DNA from: Escherichia coli
GTDB taxonomy: Bacteria > Pseudomonadota > Gammaproteobacteria > Enterobacterales > Enterobacteriaceae
DNA length: 64,000 nt
Strand: one strand, 5' to 3'
Assembly: GCF_013122565.1 (NCBI RefSeq)
Contig: NZ_CP053258.1
In this document: in pieces, positions 1,173 to 63,935 of the stretch
Layout of the letters: every line of letters starts with the position of its first letter
Numbering within the stretch: position 1 is the first letter of the stretch
Notes under the pieces: model-generated
What the model was told of the DNA's origin: nothing
Databases searched by the model: none
Seen by the model: only the letters and a program-made list of their open reading frames with translations
Translations under genes and position numbers: made by a program

Positions 1173-2606
1173 ATGAAAGTAACGCTGCCAGAGTTTGAAC
1201 GTGCAGGAGTGATGGTGGTTGGTGATGTGATGCTGGATCGTTATTGGTACGGTCCCACCAGCCGTATCTCGCCGGAAGCGCCGGTGCCCGTGGTTAAAGT
1301 GAATACCATCGAAGAACGTCCGGGCGGCGCGGCTAACGTGGCGATGAACATCGCTTCTCTCGGTGCTAATGCACGCCTGGTCGGGTTGACGGGCATTGAC
1401 GATGCAGCGCGTGCGCTGAGTAAATCTCTGGCCGACGTCAACGTCAAATGCGACTTCGTTTCTGTACCGACGCATCCGACCATCACCAAATTACGGGTAC
1501 TTTCCCGCAACCAACAGCTGATCCGTCTGGATTTTGAAGAAGGTTTCGAAGGTGTTGATCCGCAGCCGCTGCACGAGCGGATTAATCAGACGCTGAGTTC
1601 GATTGGCGCGCTGGTGCTTTCTGACTACGCCAAAGGTGCGCTGGCAAGCGTACAGCAGATGATCCAACTGGCGCGTAAAGCGGGCGTTCCGGTGCTGATT
1701 GATCCAAAAGGTACCGATTTTGAGCGCTACCGCGGCGCTACGCTGTTAACGCCGAATCTCTCGGAATTTGAAGCTGTTGTCGGTAAATGTAAGACCGAAG
1801 AAGAGATTGTTGAGCGCGGCATGAAACTGATTGCCGATTACGAACTCTCGGCTCTGTTAGTGACCCGTTCCGAACAGGGTATGTCGCTGCTTCAACCGGG
1901 TAAAGCGCCGCTGCATATGCCAACCCAGGCGCAGGAAGTGTATGACGTTACCGGCGCGGGCGACACGGTGATTGGCGTCCTGGCGGCAACGCTGGCAGCG
2001 GGTAATTCGCTGGAAGAAGCCTGCTTCTTTGCCAATGCGGCGGCAGGCGTGGTGGTCGGCAAACTGGGAACCTCCACGGTTTCGCCGATCGAGCTGGAAA
2101 ATGCTGTACGTGGACGTGCAGATACCGGCTTTGGCGTGATGACCGAAGAGGAACTGAAGCTGGCTGTAGCGGCAGCGCGTAAACGCGGTGAAAAAGTGGT
2201 GATGACCAATGGCGTCTTTGACATCCTGCACGCCGGGCACGTCTCTTATCTGGCAAATGCCCGTAAACTGGGTGACCGTTTGATTGTCGCCGTCAACAGC
2301 GATGCTTCCACCAAACGGCTGAAAGGGGATTCCCGCCCGGTAAACCCACTCGAACAGCGTATGATTGTGCTGGGCGCACTGGAAGCGGTCGACTGGGTAG
2401 TGTCGTTTGAAGAGGACACACCGCAGCGCTTGATCGCCGGGATCCTGCCAGACCTGCTGGTGAAAGGCGGCGATTATAAACCAGAAGAGATTGCCGGGAG
2501 TAAAGAAGTCTGGGCCAACGGCGGCGAAGTGTTGGTGCTCAACTTTGAAGACGGTTGCTCAACCACTAATATTATCAAGAAGATCCAACAGGATAAAAAA
2601 GGCTAA
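1173..2606 (+). CDS. hldE: Bifunctional D-glycero-beta-D-manno-heptose-7-phosphate kinase / heptose-1-phosphate adenylyltransferase
   Basis: 477-aa ORF; N-terminal ribokinase-like domain with GAGD motif, C-terminal cytidylyltransferase-like domain; ribosome-binding site GGAGA upstream. Confidence 0.95.
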
Positions 2607-2619
2607 CCGGAAAGCGGTT
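2593..2619 (-). terminator. Putative minus-strand intrinsic terminator (hairpin AACCG/CGGTT followed by a U-run) overlapping the hldE stop; candidate ibsD mRNA terminator
   Basis: Read on the minus strand: gaaccgctttccggtt then agccTTTTTT. Confidence 0.35.
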
Positions 2620-2686
2620 CACAGATCTCGCTTCGTAGCAGGCTGGCCTATTGACGCTGTTGTTTTTTCAACCTAAAGTAAAGGAA

Positions 2687-2834
2687 CAAGGGTAAGGGAG
2701 GATTTCTCCCCCCTCTGATGAGTTGTTAGTAAGTCGGGAAACTTAACAGTAACAACACAACCAGTATGATGACGAGCTTCATCATAACCCTTTCCTTCTA
2801 TAAGGCCCCTTCCTCGGGAGGGGCTTTCCCGTTT
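2687..2834 (+). ncRNA. sibD: Sib-type antisense sRNA (antitoxin of ibsD); ends approximate
   Basis: Sigma70-like promoter TTGACG (2651-2656), 17-bp spacer, TAAAGT (2674-2679); hairpin 2805-2824 followed by a weak T-tract; fully antisense to the 19-aa ibs ORF. Confidence 0.6.
2726..2785 (-). CDS. ibsD: Type I toxin Ibs family, 19-aa hydrophobic peptide MMKLVIILVVLLLLSFPTY
   Basis: Hand translation of the minus strand gives ATG ATG AAG CTC GTC ATC ATA CTG GTT GTG TTG TTA CTG TTA AGT TTC CCG ACT TAC TAA; AGGAAAGGG ribosome-binding site upstream; missing from the supplied ORF track because it is shorter than the length cutoff. Confidence 0.8.
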   Translation of the reverse strand: MMKLVIILVVLLLLSFPTY

Positions 2835-2976
2835 CAGCCCCTTGCTGACTCCCCGATTGTTGATGAGCGCCGGACCCCGCGCAACGCTTTCCCTGATGCA
2901 GTTTTCTCTTCCCCGAGTCGACTCGCAAAATGCTGCAACATCCTGATCATTTGCACTTTTTAGCGGAACGCAGATA

Positions 2977-3005
2977 TAAAAAATCCCCGGCTTTTTGGGC
3001 CAGGG
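2977..3005 (-). terminator. Minus-strand intrinsic terminator (CCCUGGC/GCCGGGG stem with G-U wobble, then U6), copy within repeat unit 1, downstream of ibsE
   Basis: Same motif as the terminator after yqiK. Confidence 0.45.
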
Positions 3006-3061
3006 ATATGTGTTAATGAAACCTTCTTGACGCTGATTTTTTTTCAACCTAAAGTAAAGGA

Positions 3062-3210
3062 ACAAGGGTAAGGGAGGATTTCTCCCCCCTCTGATTGGCT
3101 GTTAATAAGCTGCGAAACTTACGAGTAACAACACAATCAGTATGATGACGAGCTTCATCATAACCCTTTCCTTATACAAGGCCCCTTCTTCGGGAGGGGC
3201 TTTCCCGTTT
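3062..3210 (+). ncRNA. sibE: Sib-type antisense sRNA (antitoxin of ibsE); ends approximate
   Basis: Promoter TTGACG (3027-3032), 17-bp spacer, TAAAGT (3050-3055); hairpin 3181-3200 plus T-tract; antisense to ibsE. Confidence 0.6.
3102..3161 (-). CDS. ibsE: Type I toxin Ibs family, 19-aa peptide MMKLVIILIVLLLVSFAAY
   Basis: Hand translation of the minus strand gives ATG ATG AAG CTC GTC ATC ATA CTG ATT GTG TTG TTA CTC GTA AGT TTC GCA GCT TAT TAA. Confidence 0.8.
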   Translation of the reverse strand: MMKLVIILIVLLLVSFAAY

Positions 3211-3353
3211 CAGCCCCTTGCTGACTCCCCGATTGTTGATGAGCGCCGGACCCCGCGCAACGCTTTCCCTGAGGTAGTTTTGCCTTCCCCGAGCGGTCAC
3301 GCAAAATGCTGCAACAGCCCGATCATTTGCACTTTTTATCGGAACGCAGATAT

Positions 3354-3381
3354 AAAAAATCCCCGGCTTTTTGGGCCAGGG
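3354..3381 (-). terminator. Intrinsic terminator downstream of yqiK (minus strand)
   Basis: Minus-strand hairpin ccctggcccaaaaagccgggg followed by auuuuuu, 19 nt after the yqiK stop. Confidence 0.6.
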
Positions 3382-3399
3382 ACGTTCATAGCTGAAAAT

Positions 3400-5061
3400 T
3401 TATTCTACGTTTTCGGCGACGGGAGTTGTTGAGGTTAAGGGTGAAGTCAATGCCGCCAGTGAGCCGCCTGAAACGCCAATTTCATTGAGCAAGGAGTCAA
3501 TCAGCGGTGCCTGTGTGCGGTAAGAGAGAGCGGCTGATAATGCTTGTTCCGCCAGGTTTCCGCCCCCCACATTACCCGTGTTTGCATCACCCGCAGCGCT
3601 GCCACGATTCAGACCATCGACCTGAATAATCTTGATACCGTCAATAGATTTCATCGGCTCAACGGATTTTTCTATTACCGCAGGTAGCGCCTGCAACAAG
3701 GCCAGTTTGAATTTAAGGCTGGTTTGTTCATCAGAAAGTACGTTGATAGCATCGTTCAGCGCACGTTGTGCTTCTGCTTCCGCCAGACCCTTTTTACGTG
3801 TAGCTTCGGCTAACTCAACGATAGCCGCCGCCTGCATCTCTGCGGCTTCTTTTTCTGCTTTCGCCCGCACGGTCAGTTCAACCGCTTTGGTTTCTGCATC
3901 CTGCGCGGCAGCGATTAGGGCAACTTGTTTAGCACGATCGGCTTCGGCAGTCTGGCGAGTGGTTTCTACGTTTTGTTGGGCGCTTACCGCTTCTGCAAGT
4001 GCGAGATTAGCACGCGCTTCTGCCTGGGACTGTTGTTCCGATTTGGCGGCAATAGCGATCGATTTCGTCTGGTTAGCGATTTCGGTGACCTGCTGCTGTT
4101 CGATCTCTTTAATGCGAACTTCACGTTCAGCTTCAACCTTTCTTGAGCGGACGGCCTGTTCGCGGTCGATTTCTGTTTCCTGAATCTGTCGTTCAGCCAG
4201 AATTCGTGTCTGCTCTGCTTCACGACGACGTTCAGCTTCAAAAGCCGCAATACGTGCATTCTGTTCGGCAGTACGGGTTTTAACCTGCTGCTCCTGCTCA
4301 AGCGTCATAAACGCTTCTTGCTGTTCAATCTCCAGCTTGCGCGATAGCGCATCGCGATTTTTTTCACGCACCGCAACTTCTACATCCTGTTCAACTTCGT
4401 TACGTTCGCGGCGACGGCGCTCTGTTTCCTGAGTCAGTTTGGTTAAACCTTCGGCGTCAAAGGCATTGTTCGGATTGAAATGTTCTTTCGAGGTCTGGTT
4501 AAAGTTGGTAAGTGAAACGCTCTCCAGTTCCAGACCGTTTTTCGACAGGTCTTCTGCCACTGTATTTTGCACCCCCTGCACGAAGTTCTCGCGGGTATCC
4601 TGTAACTCATGCATGGTCATTTGCGCAGCTGTTGCACGGAGGGCATCGACAAATTTATCTTCAACCAACATACGTAAGTCTTCAGGCGACAGGGTGCGTT
4701 GCCCCAGCGTCTGGGCAGCGGTGGCAATCCCTTCTACTGAAGGTTTTACCCGCACAAAGAAAGCGACTACTACATCGACGCGCATACGATCTTTCGTAAT
4801 CAGGCTATCAATAGTTGAGCGGCTGACTTCCAGCTTCAGAGTATTCATATTGATGGGGATTATTTCATGAAAGATCGGCATCACGATTGCGCCACCGCTC
4901 ATTACCACTTTTTGCCCCCCTAAGCCGGTACGGACAAATGCTTGCTCTGCCGAAGCGCGACGATAGAGCCTGGCGAAAATAATTCCAATAATAAACAGAA
5001 TGCATACGGCAATAATCGCGGTAAACATCCAGGAGGGCACAGAATTAGCAATATCATCCAT
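3400..5061 (-). CDS. yqiK: Flotillin-like SPFH/band-7 membrane protein
   Basis: 553-aa ORF; N-terminal transmembrane segment, SPFH domain, long Ala/Glu/Gln-rich coiled-coil region. Confidence 0.9.
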   Translation of the reverse strand: MDDIANSVPSWMFTAIIAVCILFIIGIIFARLYRRASAEQAFVRTGLGGQKVVMSGGAIVMPIFHEIIPINMNTLKLEVSRSTIDSLITKDRMRVDVVVAFFVRVKPSVEGIATAAQTLGQRTLSPEDLRMLVEDKFVDALRATAAQMTMHELQDTRENFVQGVQNTVAEDLSKNGLELESVSLTNFNQTSKEHFNPNNAFDAEGLTKLTQETERRRRERNEVEQDVEVAVREKNRDALSRKLEIEQQEAFMTLEQEQQVKTRTAEQNARIAAFEAERRREAEQTRILAERQIQETEIDREQAVRSRKVEAEREVRIKEIEQQQVTEIANQTKSIAIAAKSEQQSQAEARANLALAEAVSAQQNVETTRQTAEADRAKQVALIAAAQDAETKAVELTVRAKAEKEAAEMQAAAIVELAEATRKKGLAEAEAQRALNDAINVLSDEQTSLKFKLALLQALPAVIEKSVEPMKSIDGIKIIQVDGLNRGSAAGDANTGNVGGGNLAEQALSAALSYRTQAPLIDSLLNEIGVSGGSLAALTSPLTSTTPVAENVE

Positions 5062-5717: not shown

Positions 5718-5985
5718 ATGTCACTCCAATGTCCATTTAGTGACGCAATATTTACTTTGGGATAGTTTCCTTGCTTACATTTATCTTTGTTAATAATAAC
5801 ACATGTTAGAGAAGTTCTGGAAGAAAAAGTCTTTTAATATGGTTTTTTATTTTTCACTAAAAAGTGTGATCGGGGACAATATATTTACGCACGTTATGTT
5901 TAAAGGCACTACACTGATTGGGGAATACTGAAATCAGAAAAAGCATATGGCCTTAAAAGGTATGCGATAACCGGAGGATGTGCTT

Positions 5986-6186
5986 ATGGATCATAGTCTT
6001 AATTCTTTAAATAACTTCGATTTCCTGGCGCGTAGTTTTGCCAGAATGCACGCAGAAGGTCGCCCGGTCGATATTCTGGCCGTTACTGGTAACATGGATG
6101 AAGAACATAGAACCTGGTTTTGCGCACGTTATGCCTGGTATTGCCAACAGATGATGCAAACCAGAGAACTTGAATTAGAACACTGA
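5986..6186 (+). CDS. glgS: Glycogen synthesis / surface-composition regulator GlgS (66 aa)
   Basis: Translation [66 protein letters not shown]; long AT-rich upstream region. Confidence 0.9.
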
Positions 6187-6190
6187 TATT

Positions 6191-6213
6191 ACGGGCCGTC
6201 TGGCCCGTTTTTG
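6191..6213. terminator. Terminator hairpin (CGGGCC gtct GGCCCG + T-run) in the convergent glgS/ubiK junction
   Basis: Perfect 6-bp GC stem followed by TTTTT; sits between the stop codons of convergent genes. Confidence 0.6.
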
Positions 6214-6220
6214 TGTTGCT

Positions 6221-6520
6221 TTATTCTGCTTTATCAATAGGCGGGATAGCCGGAGGAGATTGAAGATCTGCTACCGAATTATTGCGCGCTTCCAGTTCAC
6301 TGATGCGTTGCTCCAGTAACGCCAGTTTCTCACGAGTCCGTAACAGGACTTGCGTTTGGACGTCGAACTCTTCACGGCTTACAAGGTCGAGGCGCGTCAG
6401 CTGCGCTTGTAGGGTTTGGCGGATTTTTTTCTCCACATCTTCCCCGAACTCCCTGATTCCTTTAGGCATTGATTCGTGAACCTGGCGAGCGATTTGCTCA
6501 ATTTTTTTCGGGTCAATCAT
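6221..6520 (-). CDS. ubiK: Ubiquinone biosynthesis accessory factor UbiK (YqiC, BMFP family)
   Basis: ORF 6221-6580; start placed at internal Met ([13 protein letters not shown]...) to give ~99 aa; coiled-coil protein. Confidence 0.8.
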
Positions 6521-6606
6521 TGTAGTTTCCCTGTACTGATAGGTGTTGAGTGCCATTGTAGTGCGATAAGGGTAAGTCATAAACCAGAATTATGTGAAGC
6601 TATGCG

Positions 6607-6635
6607 TTGCTGCCGCTAATCATTAGCGTTATAGT
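6607..6635 (+). promoter_or_regulatory. Putative ribB promoter (-35 TTGCTG, 17-bp spacer, -10 TATAGT)
   Basis: Hexamers with canonical spacing just upstream of the riboswitch aptamer. Confidence 0.5.
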
Positions 6636-6644
6636 GAATCCGCT

Positions 6645-6795
6645 TATTCTCAGGGCGGGGCGAAATTCCCCACCGGCGGTAAATCAACTTGGTTGAAAGC
6701 CCGCGAGCGCTTTGAGTGCGAACTCAAAGGACAGCAGATCCGGTGTAATTCCGGGGCCGACGGTTAGAGTCCGGATGGGAGAGAGTAACGATTCT
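6645..6795 (+). promoter_or_regulatory. FMN riboswitch (RFN element) in the ribB leader; boundaries approximate
   Basis: Conserved RFN core: GGGCGGGGCGAAATTCCCCACCGGCGGTAAA...CCGGGGCCGACGGTTAGAGTCCGGATGGGAGAG upstream of ribB. Confidence 0.85.
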
Positions 6796-46932: not shown

Positions 46933-47036
46933 ACGTTCCTCCTTTATATGAACTCACCGGAGCAGGCTCCGGTGAGGTGTTGTGAACTTAAGTCTGGACG
47001 AAATGCCCGAAAACGAAAGTTTGAGGCGTAAAAAGC

Positions 47037-52743: not shown

Positions 52744-52962
52744 ATTGCCTGATGCGCTACGCTCATCAGGCCTACAAAATCTATTGCAACATGTTGAATC
52801 TTCGTGCGTTTGTAGGCCGGATAAGGCGTTCACGCCGCATCCGGCATTAGGGGCTCAATGCCTGATGCGCTACGCTCATCAGGCCTACAAAATCTATTGC
52901 AACATGTTGAATCTTCATGCGTTTGTAGGCGGATAAGGCGTTTTCGCCACATCAGGTAAGAG
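52744..52962. repeat. REP/BIME cluster: two tandem ~113-bp units, each with paired REP palindromes
   Basis: Repeated gcctgatgcgctacgctcatcaggcctaca and gtaggccggataaggcgtt...gccgcatccggca motifs. Confidence 0.85.
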
Positions 52963-63854: not shown

Positions 63855-63935
63855 GTAGGCCTGATAAGACGCGATAGCGTCGCATCAGGCATTGTGCTCG
63901 ATTGCCGGATGCGGCGTGAATGCCTTATCCGGCCT
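63855..63935. repeat. REP palindromic units downstream of hybG
   Basis: gtaggcctgataagacgcgatagcgtcgcatcaggc and gccggatgcggcgtgaatgccttatccggcc. Confidence 0.8.

What the first reader, a model, noticed from the sequence alone, without database searches (positions are those of the whole stretch)
2651..3400. Tandemly duplicated Ibs/Sib type I toxin-antitoxin units between hldE and yqiK
Two ~375-bp direct repeats each encode a 19-aa hydrophobic Ibs-type toxin on the minus strand, too short for the supplied ORF track. Each is overlapped by a plus-strand antisense transcript with a near-consensus sigma70 promoter (TTGACG-17-TAAAGT) and a GC-rich terminator hairpin. The plus-strand ORFs that the track reports across these repeats (2766-2963, 3142-3432) are almost certainly not genes. 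This matches the sibD/ibsD and sibE/ibsE arrangement described for E. coli. The two toxins differ at four positions (V9I, L14V, P17A, T18A).
Basis: partly seen in the sequence, partly recalled or inferred. Interest (0 to 1): 0.45.

Follow-up and report, generated by a model that had tools for sequence, protein, structure and literature searches.

The report
Known sibE/ibsE and sibD/ibsD toxin-antitoxin pair
Two tandem copies of a well-studied E. coli module, each a 19-residue membrane toxin gene silenced by an antisense small RNA from the opposite strand, sit where they sit in E. coli K-12; this is ordinary and already described.

Summary
Window 2651-3010 and 3027-3386 are two 360-bp direct repeats, 331/360 identical, with a period of 376 bp. 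Each scores far above threshold for Rfam SIB_RNA on the + strand (143 and 151 bits; cutoff 56). Each carries a 19-codon minus-strand ORF that matches Pfam Ibs_toxin.

Alignment to the annotated K-12 chromosome gives the identities. The hldE-proximal unit is sibE (2686-2829, +) with ibsE (2726-2785, -). The yqiK-proximal unit is sibD (3062-3205, +) with ibsD (3102-3161, -). Both peptides are identical to K-12 IbsE and IbsD.

The two-unit region is present in 5415 of 5426 complete E. coli genomes. Across 63 enterobacterial Sib copies, the ibs frame stays at 18-19 codons in 61. The Sib fold shows compensatory changes, and the TTGAC -35 element is kept in 62. The + strand ORFs are frameshifted in K-12 and vary from 3 to 100 codons in relatives, so they are not genes.

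The only modest novelty is that one recognition element (TRD2) is exchanged between the D and E units relative to K-12. Many E. coli genomes, including O157:H7, carry the same allele.

Verdict: already known, low interest.

The parts
2651..3010 (.). Repeat unit 1 (the sibE/ibsE unit)
   Evidence: Direct repeat with unit 2, 331/360 identical, no gaps.
3027..3386 (.). Repeat unit 2 (the sibD/ibsD unit)
2651..2679 (+). sibE promoter: -35 TTGACG (2651-2656), 17-bp spacer, -10 TAAAGT (2674-2679)
   Evidence: It is 34/35 identical to K-12. TTGAC is conserved in 62/63 Sib copies.
2686..2829 (+). SibE antitoxin sRNA, 144 nt, starting with A
   Evidence: Boundaries transferred from K-12 sibE b4611, 141/144 identical. 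Rfam 142.8 bits. MFE -51.8 kcal/mol, z -3.6.
2726..2785 (-). ibsE, 19-aa toxin MMKLVIILVVLLLLSFPTY, plus stop codon
   Evidence: Identical to K-12 IbsE.
2732..2754 (+). SibE TRD1 (recognition domain inside the ibs ORF)
   Evidence: Mapped from SibC +46..+68 (PMC2943612) through alignment A1. It differs from SibD at 5 of 23 positions.
2785..2804 (+). SibE TRD2 (recognition domain over the ibsE translation initiation region)
   Evidence: Mapped from SibC +99..+115. Positions 2798 and 2801 differ from SibD. The type is swapped relative to K-12.
2802..2826 (+). SibE terminator hairpin
   Evidence: 11-bp stem, -19.3 kcal/mol. Compensatory changes in helix 6.
2688..2849 (-). ibsE mRNA (about 162 nt). 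The 5' end is inferred; the 3' end is approximate.
   Evidence: The +1 G of GTCAGCA was derived from the ibsD primers of PMC2943612 and located in the window. Fold -61.1 kcal/mol, z -3.0.
2856..2884 (-). ibsE promoter: -10 AACAAT (2861-2856), -35 TTGCGC (2884-2879), 17-bp spacer
   Evidence: Inferred from the -21..+1 sequence of the K-12 ibsD construct. Coordinates. Only 7/12 to consensus, so not flagged.
2973..3007 (-). Intrinsic terminator (duplicate of the yqiK terminator), downstream of ibsD
   Evidence: -15.3 kcal/mol, followed by UUUUUUAU.
3027..3055 (+). sibD promoter: TTGACG-17-TAAAGT
   Evidence: The -35..-1 stretch is 35/35 identical to K-12. That 35-bp stretch is the experimentally defined minimal sibD promoter (PMC12956327).
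3062..3205 (+). SibD antitoxin sRNA, 144 nt, starting with A
   Evidence: Rfam 150.8 bits. MFE -52.4 kcal/mol, z -4.5.
3102..3161 (-). ibsD, 19-aa toxin MMKLVIILIVLLLVSFAAY, plus stop codon
   Evidence: Identical to K-12 IbsD.
3108..3130 (+). SibD TRD1
3161..3180 (+). SibD TRD2
3178..3202 (+). SibD terminator hairpin
   Evidence: -18.2 kcal/mol.
3064..3225 (-). ibsD mRNA (about 162 nt). The 5' end is inferred from K-12 primer-extension constructs.
   Evidence: Fold -67.3 kcal/mol, z -4.9.
3232..3260 (-). ibsD promoter: -10 AACAAT, -35 TTGCGC
3349..3383 (-). yqiK intrinsic terminator, which forms the distal end of repeat unit 2

Best explanation
The region holds two adjacent, intact type I toxin-antitoxin modules: sibE/ibsE next to hldE and sibD/ibsD next to yqiK.

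In each unit a weak minus-strand promoter makes an ibs mRNA of about 162 nt. Its 64-nt leader, Shine-Dalgarno sequence (AAGGAAAGG) and 19-codon ORF encode a very hydrophobic membrane peptide. A stronger sigma-70 promoter on the + strand (TTGACG-17-TAAAGT, +1 A) makes a 144-nt Sib RNA. That RNA is perfectly complementary to almost the whole ibs mRNA, including the ribosome-binding site and ORF.

Sib contacts its cognate mRNA first through two exposed recognition domains, TRD1 inside the ORF and TRD2 over the translation initiation region. Pairing then spreads, which blocks translation and destabilises the mRNA, so toxin is not made.

The two units differ at 13 of 144 Sib positions, and 12 of these lie in or beside the TRDs. 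Each Sib is therefore expected to silence only its own toxin.

If toxin is made, it inserts in the inner membrane, depolarises it and lowers ATP.

Shown here: the sequence anatomy, family membership, conservation of the ORF, fold and promoter, and identity with the K-12 genes. Inferred from published K-12 and Salmonella experiments: transcription, repression, specificity and toxicity.
For: - Rfam SIB_RNA scores 142.8 and 150.8 bits on the + strand against a gathering score of 56. Minus-strand mirror hits fall below threshold.
- Pfam Ibs_toxin scores 46.3 and 40 bits against a cutoff of 27.
- The locus aligns collinearly to the K-12 sibD/ibsD and sibE/ibsE annotation. Peptides are identical, the Sib RNAs are 141/144 and 141/145 identical, and the sibD minimal promoter is 35/35 identical.
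- RefSeq annotates ibsE and an Ibs-family toxin at this place, and 5415 of 5426 complete E. coli genomes cover at least 80% of the two-unit region.
- Among 63 Sib copies from 56 enterobacterial loci, 90.4% of structure cells pair, against 33-60% when partners are slid. Thirteen pairs carry compensatory changes, and there are many G-U pairs, which only work on the Sib strand.
- The ibs frame is 18-19 codons in 61 of 63 copies, with codon-position entropy 0.51/0.23/0.76.
- The TTGAC -35 element is kept in 62 of 63 copies.
- Differences between the two Sib RNAs cluster in TRD1 and TRD2. PMC2943612 reports this for the family and shows experimentally that the TRDs set specificity.
- SibD, SibE and SibC transcription from +1 A and NAD capping are documented in K-12 (PMC12956327).
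- Membrane depolarisation by Ibs is cited in the preprint 10.1101/2025.05.26.656083, which also reports inhibition of FoF1 ATP synthase by the Salmonella toxin at this same locus.
Against: - No expression data exist for the source strain.
- The Sib terminators lack a good U-run and were not flagged by the scanner.
- The ibs promoters match only 7/12 consensus positions, and their start sites are transferred from K-12 plasmid constructs.
- The 3' end of ibs mRNA was never mapped, even in K-12 (PMC2943612).
- The physiological role of chromosomal Ibs toxins in E. coli is still unsettled.
- TRD2 of the two units differs at only 2 of 20 positions, so some cross-repression cannot be excluded.
Confidence: 0.95

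Rival explanations
1. The + strand ORFs (2766-2963, 65 aa; 3142-3432, 96 aa) are the real genes, and the repeats are a duplicated small protein gene.
For: Both ORFs exist and start with ATGATG. Their first 42 residues are nearly identical between the two units.
Against: - Both frames are broken by 1-bp indels in K-12.
- They have no significant Pfam or NCBIfam match.
- In 63 related loci the ORF from the same ATGATG ranges from 3 to 100 codons.
- No CDS is annotated there in RefSeq or K-12.
- The ATGATG is only the mirror of the ibs start within the inverted repeat ATGATGA-N6-TCATCAT.
Confidence: 0.01
2. The units are decaying relics: the sequences are recognisable, but one or both toxins or antitoxins are no longer expressed or active in this strain.
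For: - Some relatives do carry disrupted ibs frames while the Sib model score stays above 100 bits (L034 Citrobacter sedlakii, L051 Citrobacter sp. MGH106).
- K-12 IbsA is reported to be non-lethal without SibA (PMC2943612).
- K-12 annotates IbsD only as 'putative toxic peptide'.
Against: - Both ORFs, both Shine-Dalgarno sequences, both sib promoters and both terminators are intact.
- They are identical or nearly identical to the K-12 versions.
- ibsD expression constructs needed SibD for transformation in the K-12 assays (PMC2943612).
Confidence: 0.03
3. The Sib RNAs act mainly in trans, or as NAD-capped RNAs with another role, and ibs repression is secondary.
For: A large share of SibD, SibE and SibC transcripts is NAD-capped, and their transcription responds to ppGpp and DksA (PMC12956327).
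Against: - No trans target is known.
- Full antisense overlap with a conserved toxin ORF (61/63 intact) and TRD-based specificity explain the conservation without a second function.
- This reading adds to the best explanation rather than excluding it.
Confidence: 0.01

Closest known systems
sibE/ibsE (b4611/b4666) and sibD/ibsD (b4447/b4664) of E. coli K-12 MG1655, between yqiK and hldE
   Same: Same locus, same gene order and same 376-bp tandem arrangement. The toxin peptides are identical. The Sib RNAs are 141/144 and 141/145 identical, and the sibD minimal promoter is identical.
   Different: The intergenic region is only about 95% identical (750/788). The TRD2 sequence types are exchanged between the two units: the window has E = CTATAAGG and D = ATACAAGG, while K-12 has E = ATACAAGG and D = CTGTAAGG. 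The sibE -10 element is TAAAGT rather than TAGAGT.
sibA/ibsA and sibB/ibsB (tandem, yegL-mdtA) and sibC/ibsC (fau-serA) of E. coli K-12
   Same: Same family. Homology runs from the sib -35 element through the Sib terminator to the ibs start-site region. The A/B pair is also a local tandem duplication.
   Different: These are different loci, and their ibs promoter and upstream regions are unrelated to those of D/E. SibA and SibB start with G and are not NAD-capped (PMC12956327). IbsB is 18 aa.
Salmonella Typhimurium ibsA/sibA at yqiK-rfaE(hldE)
   Same: An orthologous position and the same family. The 19-aa toxin was shown experimentally to start at the internal ATG (preprint 10.1101/2025.05.26.656083).
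   Different: It is a single copy. My loci from Salmonella, Citrobacter, Kluyvera and Phytobacter also show one copy downstream of hldE. The tandem duplication is seen in E. coli, E. albertii and Escherichia sp. E1V33.
ldr/rdl (LDR repeats) and hok/sok type I systems
   Same: Each has a small hydrophobic toxin repressed by a cis-encoded antisense RNA, and chromosomal copies are often tandemly repeated (PMC2887945).
   Different: The sequences are unrelated. In those systems the antisense RNA overlaps only part of the mRNA, whereas Sib covers the whole functional ibs mRNA (PMC2943612).

Membership tests
Sib antitoxin RNA (Rfam RF00113 SIB_RNA) | Covariance-model score at or above the curated gathering score, on the strand opposite ibs | tested here: met
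   142.8 and 150.8 bits against 56, + strand, full model 1-147. Antisense mirror hits score 28.7 and 39.8 bits, below threshold.
Sib antitoxin RNA (Rfam RF00113 SIB_RNA) | A conserved multi-helix fold (P1 closing stem, 5' hairpin, TRD1 stem-loop, ATGATGA/TCATCAT hairpin, terminator) | tested here: met
   Both RNAs fold this way with z -3.6 and -4.5. Across 63 homologues, 90.4% of cells pair, against 33-60% when slid, and 13 pairs carry compensatory changes. Caveat: that alignment was fitted to the model.
Sib antitoxin RNA (Rfam RF00113 SIB_RNA) | Its own sigma-70 promoter and an RNA of about 140 nt that spans the whole ibs ORF and translation initiation region | tested here: met
   TTGACG-17-TAAAGT with +1 A. 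Transferred boundaries give 144 nt, covering the ibs ORF plus Shine-Dalgarno sequence. The -35 element is conserved in 62/63 copies.
Sib antitoxin RNA (Rfam RF00113 SIB_RNA) | The RNA is actually transcribed and represses the cognate ibs | not testable with these tools
   Documented for K-12 only (PMC2943612; PMC12956327).
Ibs toxin (Pfam PF13956) | Profile match above the curated cutoff over the full 19-residue profile | tested here: met
   46.3 and 40 bits against 27, profile positions 1-19 of 19. The peptides had to be padded with 4-6 upstream in-frame residues because the tool needs at least 20 aa. NCBIfam returned no Ibs model.
Ibs toxin (Pfam PF13956) | An 18-19 aa, strongly hydrophobic peptide with an MM start, a Shine-Dalgarno sequence and a conserved frame | tested here: met
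   19 aa, GRAVY 2.25 and 2.59. AAGGAAAGG lies upstream. The frame is kept in 61/63 relatives with a coding-type substitution pattern.
Ibs toxin (Pfam PF13956) | Toxic when expressed without Sib | not testable with these tools
   The peptides are identical to K-12 IbsD and IbsE. Toxicity is reported in the literature cited.
Type I toxin-antitoxin system | [quoted passage not shown] | tested here: met
   The Sib RNA and the inferred ibs mRNA come from opposite strands of the same 142 bp, so complementarity is perfect by construction. Whether pairing occurs in vivo was not tested.

The most novel reading that the evidence does not exclude
The two tandem units appear to exchange specificity modules by gene conversion.

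- Relative to K-12 and E. albertii, the TRD2 element (and parts of the downstream unit) is swapped between the D and E copies in this window. The same state occurs in FDAARGOS_943 and in O157:H7-type genomes.
- The 55-bp ibs promoter and leader block is 55/55 identical between the units, while the Sib RNAs differ at 13 sites.
- In Escherichia sp. E1V33 both copies carry the same TRD2. By the published rule that either TRD suffices, this predicts cross-repression between the two modules.

If this holds, natural populations reassort the two recognition domains, and the insulation between paralogous type I modules varies by lineage.
Probability: 0.3. Interest if true: 0.3.

Novelty: already known. 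Interest (0 to 1): 0.08.

Why it matters
It matters little as a discovery. The locus is the textbook sibD/ibsD and sibE/ibsE pair, described in K-12 in 2008 and dissected since. The practical value lies in annotation:

- 19-codon toxin genes and their antisense RNAs are routinely missed by ORF callers.
- The two longer + strand ORFs that a caller would report here are artefacts.
- The Rfam hit coordinates include the promoter and omit the terminator, so they should not be used as RNA boundaries.

The lineage-specific swap of TRD2 between the copies is a small, cheap lead for anyone studying how paralogous antisense RNAs stay insulated from one another.

Tried and rejected
- The primary paper (Fozo et al. 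2008, PMC2597788) is not held. Its results are cited only through PMC2943612, PMC2887945 and the 2025 preprint.
- NCBIfam gave no Ibs match. Pfam did.
- The consensus scanners missed the Sib terminators because of their poor U-tract. They also missed the ibs promoters, which match 7/12. These parts rest on folding and on start sites derived from K-12 primers.
- A first batch fold failed on the length limit.
- I looked for the source genome among GTDB species representatives. The best match is K-12 at 97.6%, and other Escherichia species are at most 93.4%. The best of 5426 complete E. coli genomes is 97.9-98.9% identical. The source is therefore an E. coli-group lineage without a near-identical complete genome in the collection, and I did not resolve it further.
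- I considered whether the swapped TRD2 makes this locus unusual. It does not: the exact 120-nt sibE core is at least 99% identical in 1411 genomes and the sibD core in 283, including O157:H7.
- The internal promoter-like site at 2743-2770 occurs in one copy only and was treated as chance.
- A literature search for gene conversion between sibD and sibE found nothing relevant.
Full report
**Observation**

One direct-repeat family covers 2651-2950 and 3027-3326 at 92% identity without gaps, with start-to-start spacing of 376. Extended by global alignment, the units are 2651-3010 and 3027-3386. They are 331/360 identical with no indel and are separated by 16 nt.

The units lie between hldE (1173-2606, +) and yqiK (3400-5061, -). 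On the minus strand each unit has a 19-codon ORF: 2726-2785 encodes MMKLVIILVVLLLLSFPTY and 3102-3161 encodes MMKLVIILIVLLLVSFAAY.

TTGACG-17-TAAAGT is present at 2651-2679 and 3027-3055 and matches 9 of 12 consensus positions. GC-rich 11-bp hairpins lie at 2802-2826 and 3178-3202, with -19.3 and -18.2 kcal/mol. Their U-tract is weak, which is why the scanner missed them.

**Identity**

Rfam SIB_RNA (RF00113) matches the + strand of both units at 142.8 and 150.8 bits. The gathering score is 56, and E = 3.5e-31 and 3.9e-33. These are the only Sib hits in the 64-kb window. Note that the Rfam model begins at the -35 element and stops before the terminator, so its coordinates (2651-2800, 3027-3176) are not the RNA boundaries.

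Both peptides match Pfam PF13956 Ibs_toxin over the whole 19-position profile at 46.3 and 40 bits, against a cutoff of 27. I had to pad them with the in-frame upstream residues because the tool needs at least 20 aa.

The K-12 MG1655 record annotates, between yqiK and hldE, sibD (b4447), ibsD (b4664), sibE (b4611) and ibsE (b4666). Aligning the window to it gives:

| Feature | Window coordinates | Strand | Identity to K-12 |
|---|---|---|---|
| sibE | 2686-2829 | + | 141/144 |
| ibsE | 2726-2785 | - | peptide identical |
| sibD | 3062-3205 | + | 141/145 |
| ibsD | 3102-3161 | - | peptide identical |

The copy next to hldE is therefore E and the copy next to yqiK is D.

The 821-bp region is covered at 80% or more in 5415 of 5426 complete E. 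coli genomes. RefSeq annotates 'ibsE' and 'Ibs family toxin' under it.

The primer table of Han et al. 2010 (PMC2943612) fixes the K-12 ibsD start site. The pBAD-ibsD forward primer starts at -21 (GCGCTCATCAACAATCG...), and the T7 template starts at GTCAGCAG. So +1 is the G of GTCAGCA, with AACAAT as the -10 element.

In the window this places the minus-strand features as follows:

| Feature | ibsE unit | ibsD unit |
|---|---|---|
| ibs start site | 2849 | 3225 |
| -10 hexamer | 2861-2856 | 3237-3232 |
| -35 hexamer (TTGCGC), 17-bp spacer | 2884-2879 | 3260-3255 |

Each ibs mRNA of about 162 nt then ends at about Sib +3, so Sib and ibs transcripts overlap over about 142 nt. The paper itself notes that the ibs 3' end was only estimated from length.

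The predicted ibs mRNAs fold stably, with z -3.0 and -4.9. The start codon is buried in the AUGAUGA/UCAUCAU hairpin.

The far end of each unit is a minus-strand intrinsic terminator, at 3383-3359 and 3007-2983. The first is the yqiK terminator. The second is its duplicate and lies downstream of ibsD. The duplicated segment therefore ran from the sib -35 element to the yqiK terminator.

Comparison with K-12 sibA, sibB and sibC shows where family-wide homology stops. It runs only from the sib -35 element to the ibs start-site region. The rest of the unit is shared only between D and E, and a different sequence is shared between A and B. This indicates separate local tandem duplications.

**Independent comparative tests**

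A scan of GTDB species representatives with a degenerate pattern over the ATGATGA-N-TCATCAT-CCCT core gave 86 stretches. A covariance model built from the window and K-12 copies (A1, R1) then found 63 strong Sib copies (87-168 bits). They came from Escherichia, Citrobacter, Salmonella, Kluyvera, Pseudocitrobacter, Phytobacter, Pluralibacter, Hafnia, Chimaeribacter and others.

On that alignment:

- 90.4% of structure cells form standard pairs, against 33-60% when partners are slid by 1-3 columns.
- Thirteen of 42 pairs show compensatory changes; for example, one pair is CG in 39 copies and GC in 24.
- Several pairs are frequently G-U, which would be A-C mismatches on the ibs strand.

The alignment was fitted to the model, so these numbers lean towards the structure.

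The ibs-strand ORF is 19 codons in 54 copies, 18 in 7 and disrupted in 2. Codon-position entropy is 0.51/0.23/0.76, a coding signature. The Sib-sense ORF from the mirrored ATGATG ranges from 3 to 100 codons in the same loci. The window's two + strand ORFs are frameshifted in K-12 and have no significant family match, so they are not genes. TTGAC at the sib -35 is kept in 62 of 63 copies.

**Mechanism**

This part is inferred from published work on identical or near-identical K-12 sequences, not shown here.

- Sib RNAs are constitutively expressed RNAs of about 140 nt that repress the cognate ibs mRNA. Repression is cognate-specific except for ibsA (PMC2943612).
- SibC uses two independent recognition domains, TRD1 (+46..+68, within the ORF) and TRD2 (+99..+115, over the translation initiation region). 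Swapping either to the SibD sequence retargets SibC to ibsD.
- Mapped onto the window, TRD1 is 2732-2754 in sibE and 3108-3130 in sibD. TRD2 is 2785-2804 and 3161-3180.
- The two Sib RNAs differ at 13 positions. Ten lie at 2720-2761, two lie in TRD2 and one lies in the terminator loop. This is the pattern expected if divergence serves to insulate the copies.
[quoted passage not shown] In K-12 it drives NAD capping of +1A transcripts and responds to ppGpp and DksA (PMC12956327).
- Ibs overexpression is reported to depolarise the membrane. The single Ibs toxin at the orthologous Salmonella locus is reported to bind Fo subunits a and b and lower ATP (preprint 10.1101/2025.05.26.656083).

**What differs from K-12**

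The intergenic region is about 95% identical to K-12 (750/788), and most differences lie outside the Sib/ibs overlap.

The one notable point is that the TRD2 types are exchanged. The window has CTATAAGG in the E unit and ATACAAGG in the D unit. K-12 and E. albertii have ATACAAGG in E and CTGTAAGG in D. Several downstream sites follow the same swap.

The ibs promoter and leader block at 2830-2884 is 55/55 identical between the units. Escherichia sp. E1V33 has the same TRD2 in both units. These patterns suggest gene conversion between the tandem copies.

The swap is not special to this window. The exact 120-nt sibE core is at least 99% identical in 1411 E. coli genomes and the sibD core in 283, with 100% matches in O157:H7 strains. 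I found no paper in the searchable library that describes this exchange.

**Evolutionary context**

Downstream of hldE there is one Sib/ibs unit in the Salmonella, Citrobacter, Kluyvera and Phytobacter loci and in 'E. coli' SCPM-O-B-8794 (a separate GTDB species). There are two units, 376 bp apart, in E. coli, E. albertii and Escherichia sp. E1V33. The Salmonella preprint states the same contrast with MG1655.

**Verdict**

The finding is accurate, and it is the already-described sibE/ibsE and sibD/ibsD locus. Novelty: already known. Interest is low.

Noticed in passing
window 2798-2801 and 3174-3177; L002, L009, L078: TRD2 sequence types are swapped between the sibD and sibE units relative to K-12 and E. 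albertii. Escherichia sp. E1V33 has the same TRD2 in both units. This suggests gene conversion between the tandem copies.
   Followed up: partly
window 2830-2884 vs 3206-3260: The ibs promoter plus leader block is 55/55 identical between the two units, although the adjacent Sib RNA region differs at 13/144 positions and the upstream spacer at 11/88. The cause could be homogenisation or strong constraint.
   Followed up: no
window 2743-2770 (+): A promoter-like site, TTAACA-16-TATGAT (10/12), lies inside sibE. It is present only in unit 1, because unit 2 has TTACGA at the first hexamer. It is probably chance.
   Followed up: no
window 2605-2619 (-): A minus-strand terminator-like hairpin has its T-run overlapping the last hldE codons. 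It would stop read-through from ibsE into antisense hldE.
   Followed up: no
window 2678-2826 (-) and 3054-3202 (-): There are sub-threshold mirror hits of the SIB_RNA model on the ibs strand (28.7 and 39.8 bits), and the same occurs in relatives. The ibs mRNA can adopt a mirror image of the Sib fold.
   Followed up: partly
window 6186-6642: Homology to K-12 stops just after glgS (5980-6186). The window runs straight into ubiK/yqiC on the minus strand and then the ribB leader. The ygiL-yqiGHI fimbrial operon that K-12 carries here is therefore absent, as in Escherichia sp. E1V33, Citrobacter and Salmonella loci.
   Followed up: partly
window 6642-6790 (+): An FMN riboswitch (RF00050, 121.4 bits) is presumably the ribB leader.
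   Followed up: no
window 46971-47034 (-), 52815-52885 (+), 63858-63934 (-): Rfam hits to ES173 sRNA (99 bits) and two naRNA4/CssrE elements (65.5 and 85.7 bits).
   Followed up: no
whole window; 1-2606 and 20000-44000 tested: No complete E. coli genome of 5426 is closer than 97.9% (glnE-hldE) or 98.9% (parC-ygiS region). Only 77 genomes cover at least 80% of 20000-44000, so that stretch holds variable content. Low-GC blocks (about 0.40) lie at 18-22 kb, 24-26 kb and 38-40 kb. The source is an E. coli-group lineage that I did not identify.
   Followed up: partly
L034 4757-4894; L051 5942-6079: In Citrobacter sedlakii and Citrobacter sp. MGH106 the ibs frame is disrupted (open beyond 30 codons), while the Sib model still scores 107 and 120 bits. 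These may be decaying copies or antitoxin-only remnants.
   Followed up: no
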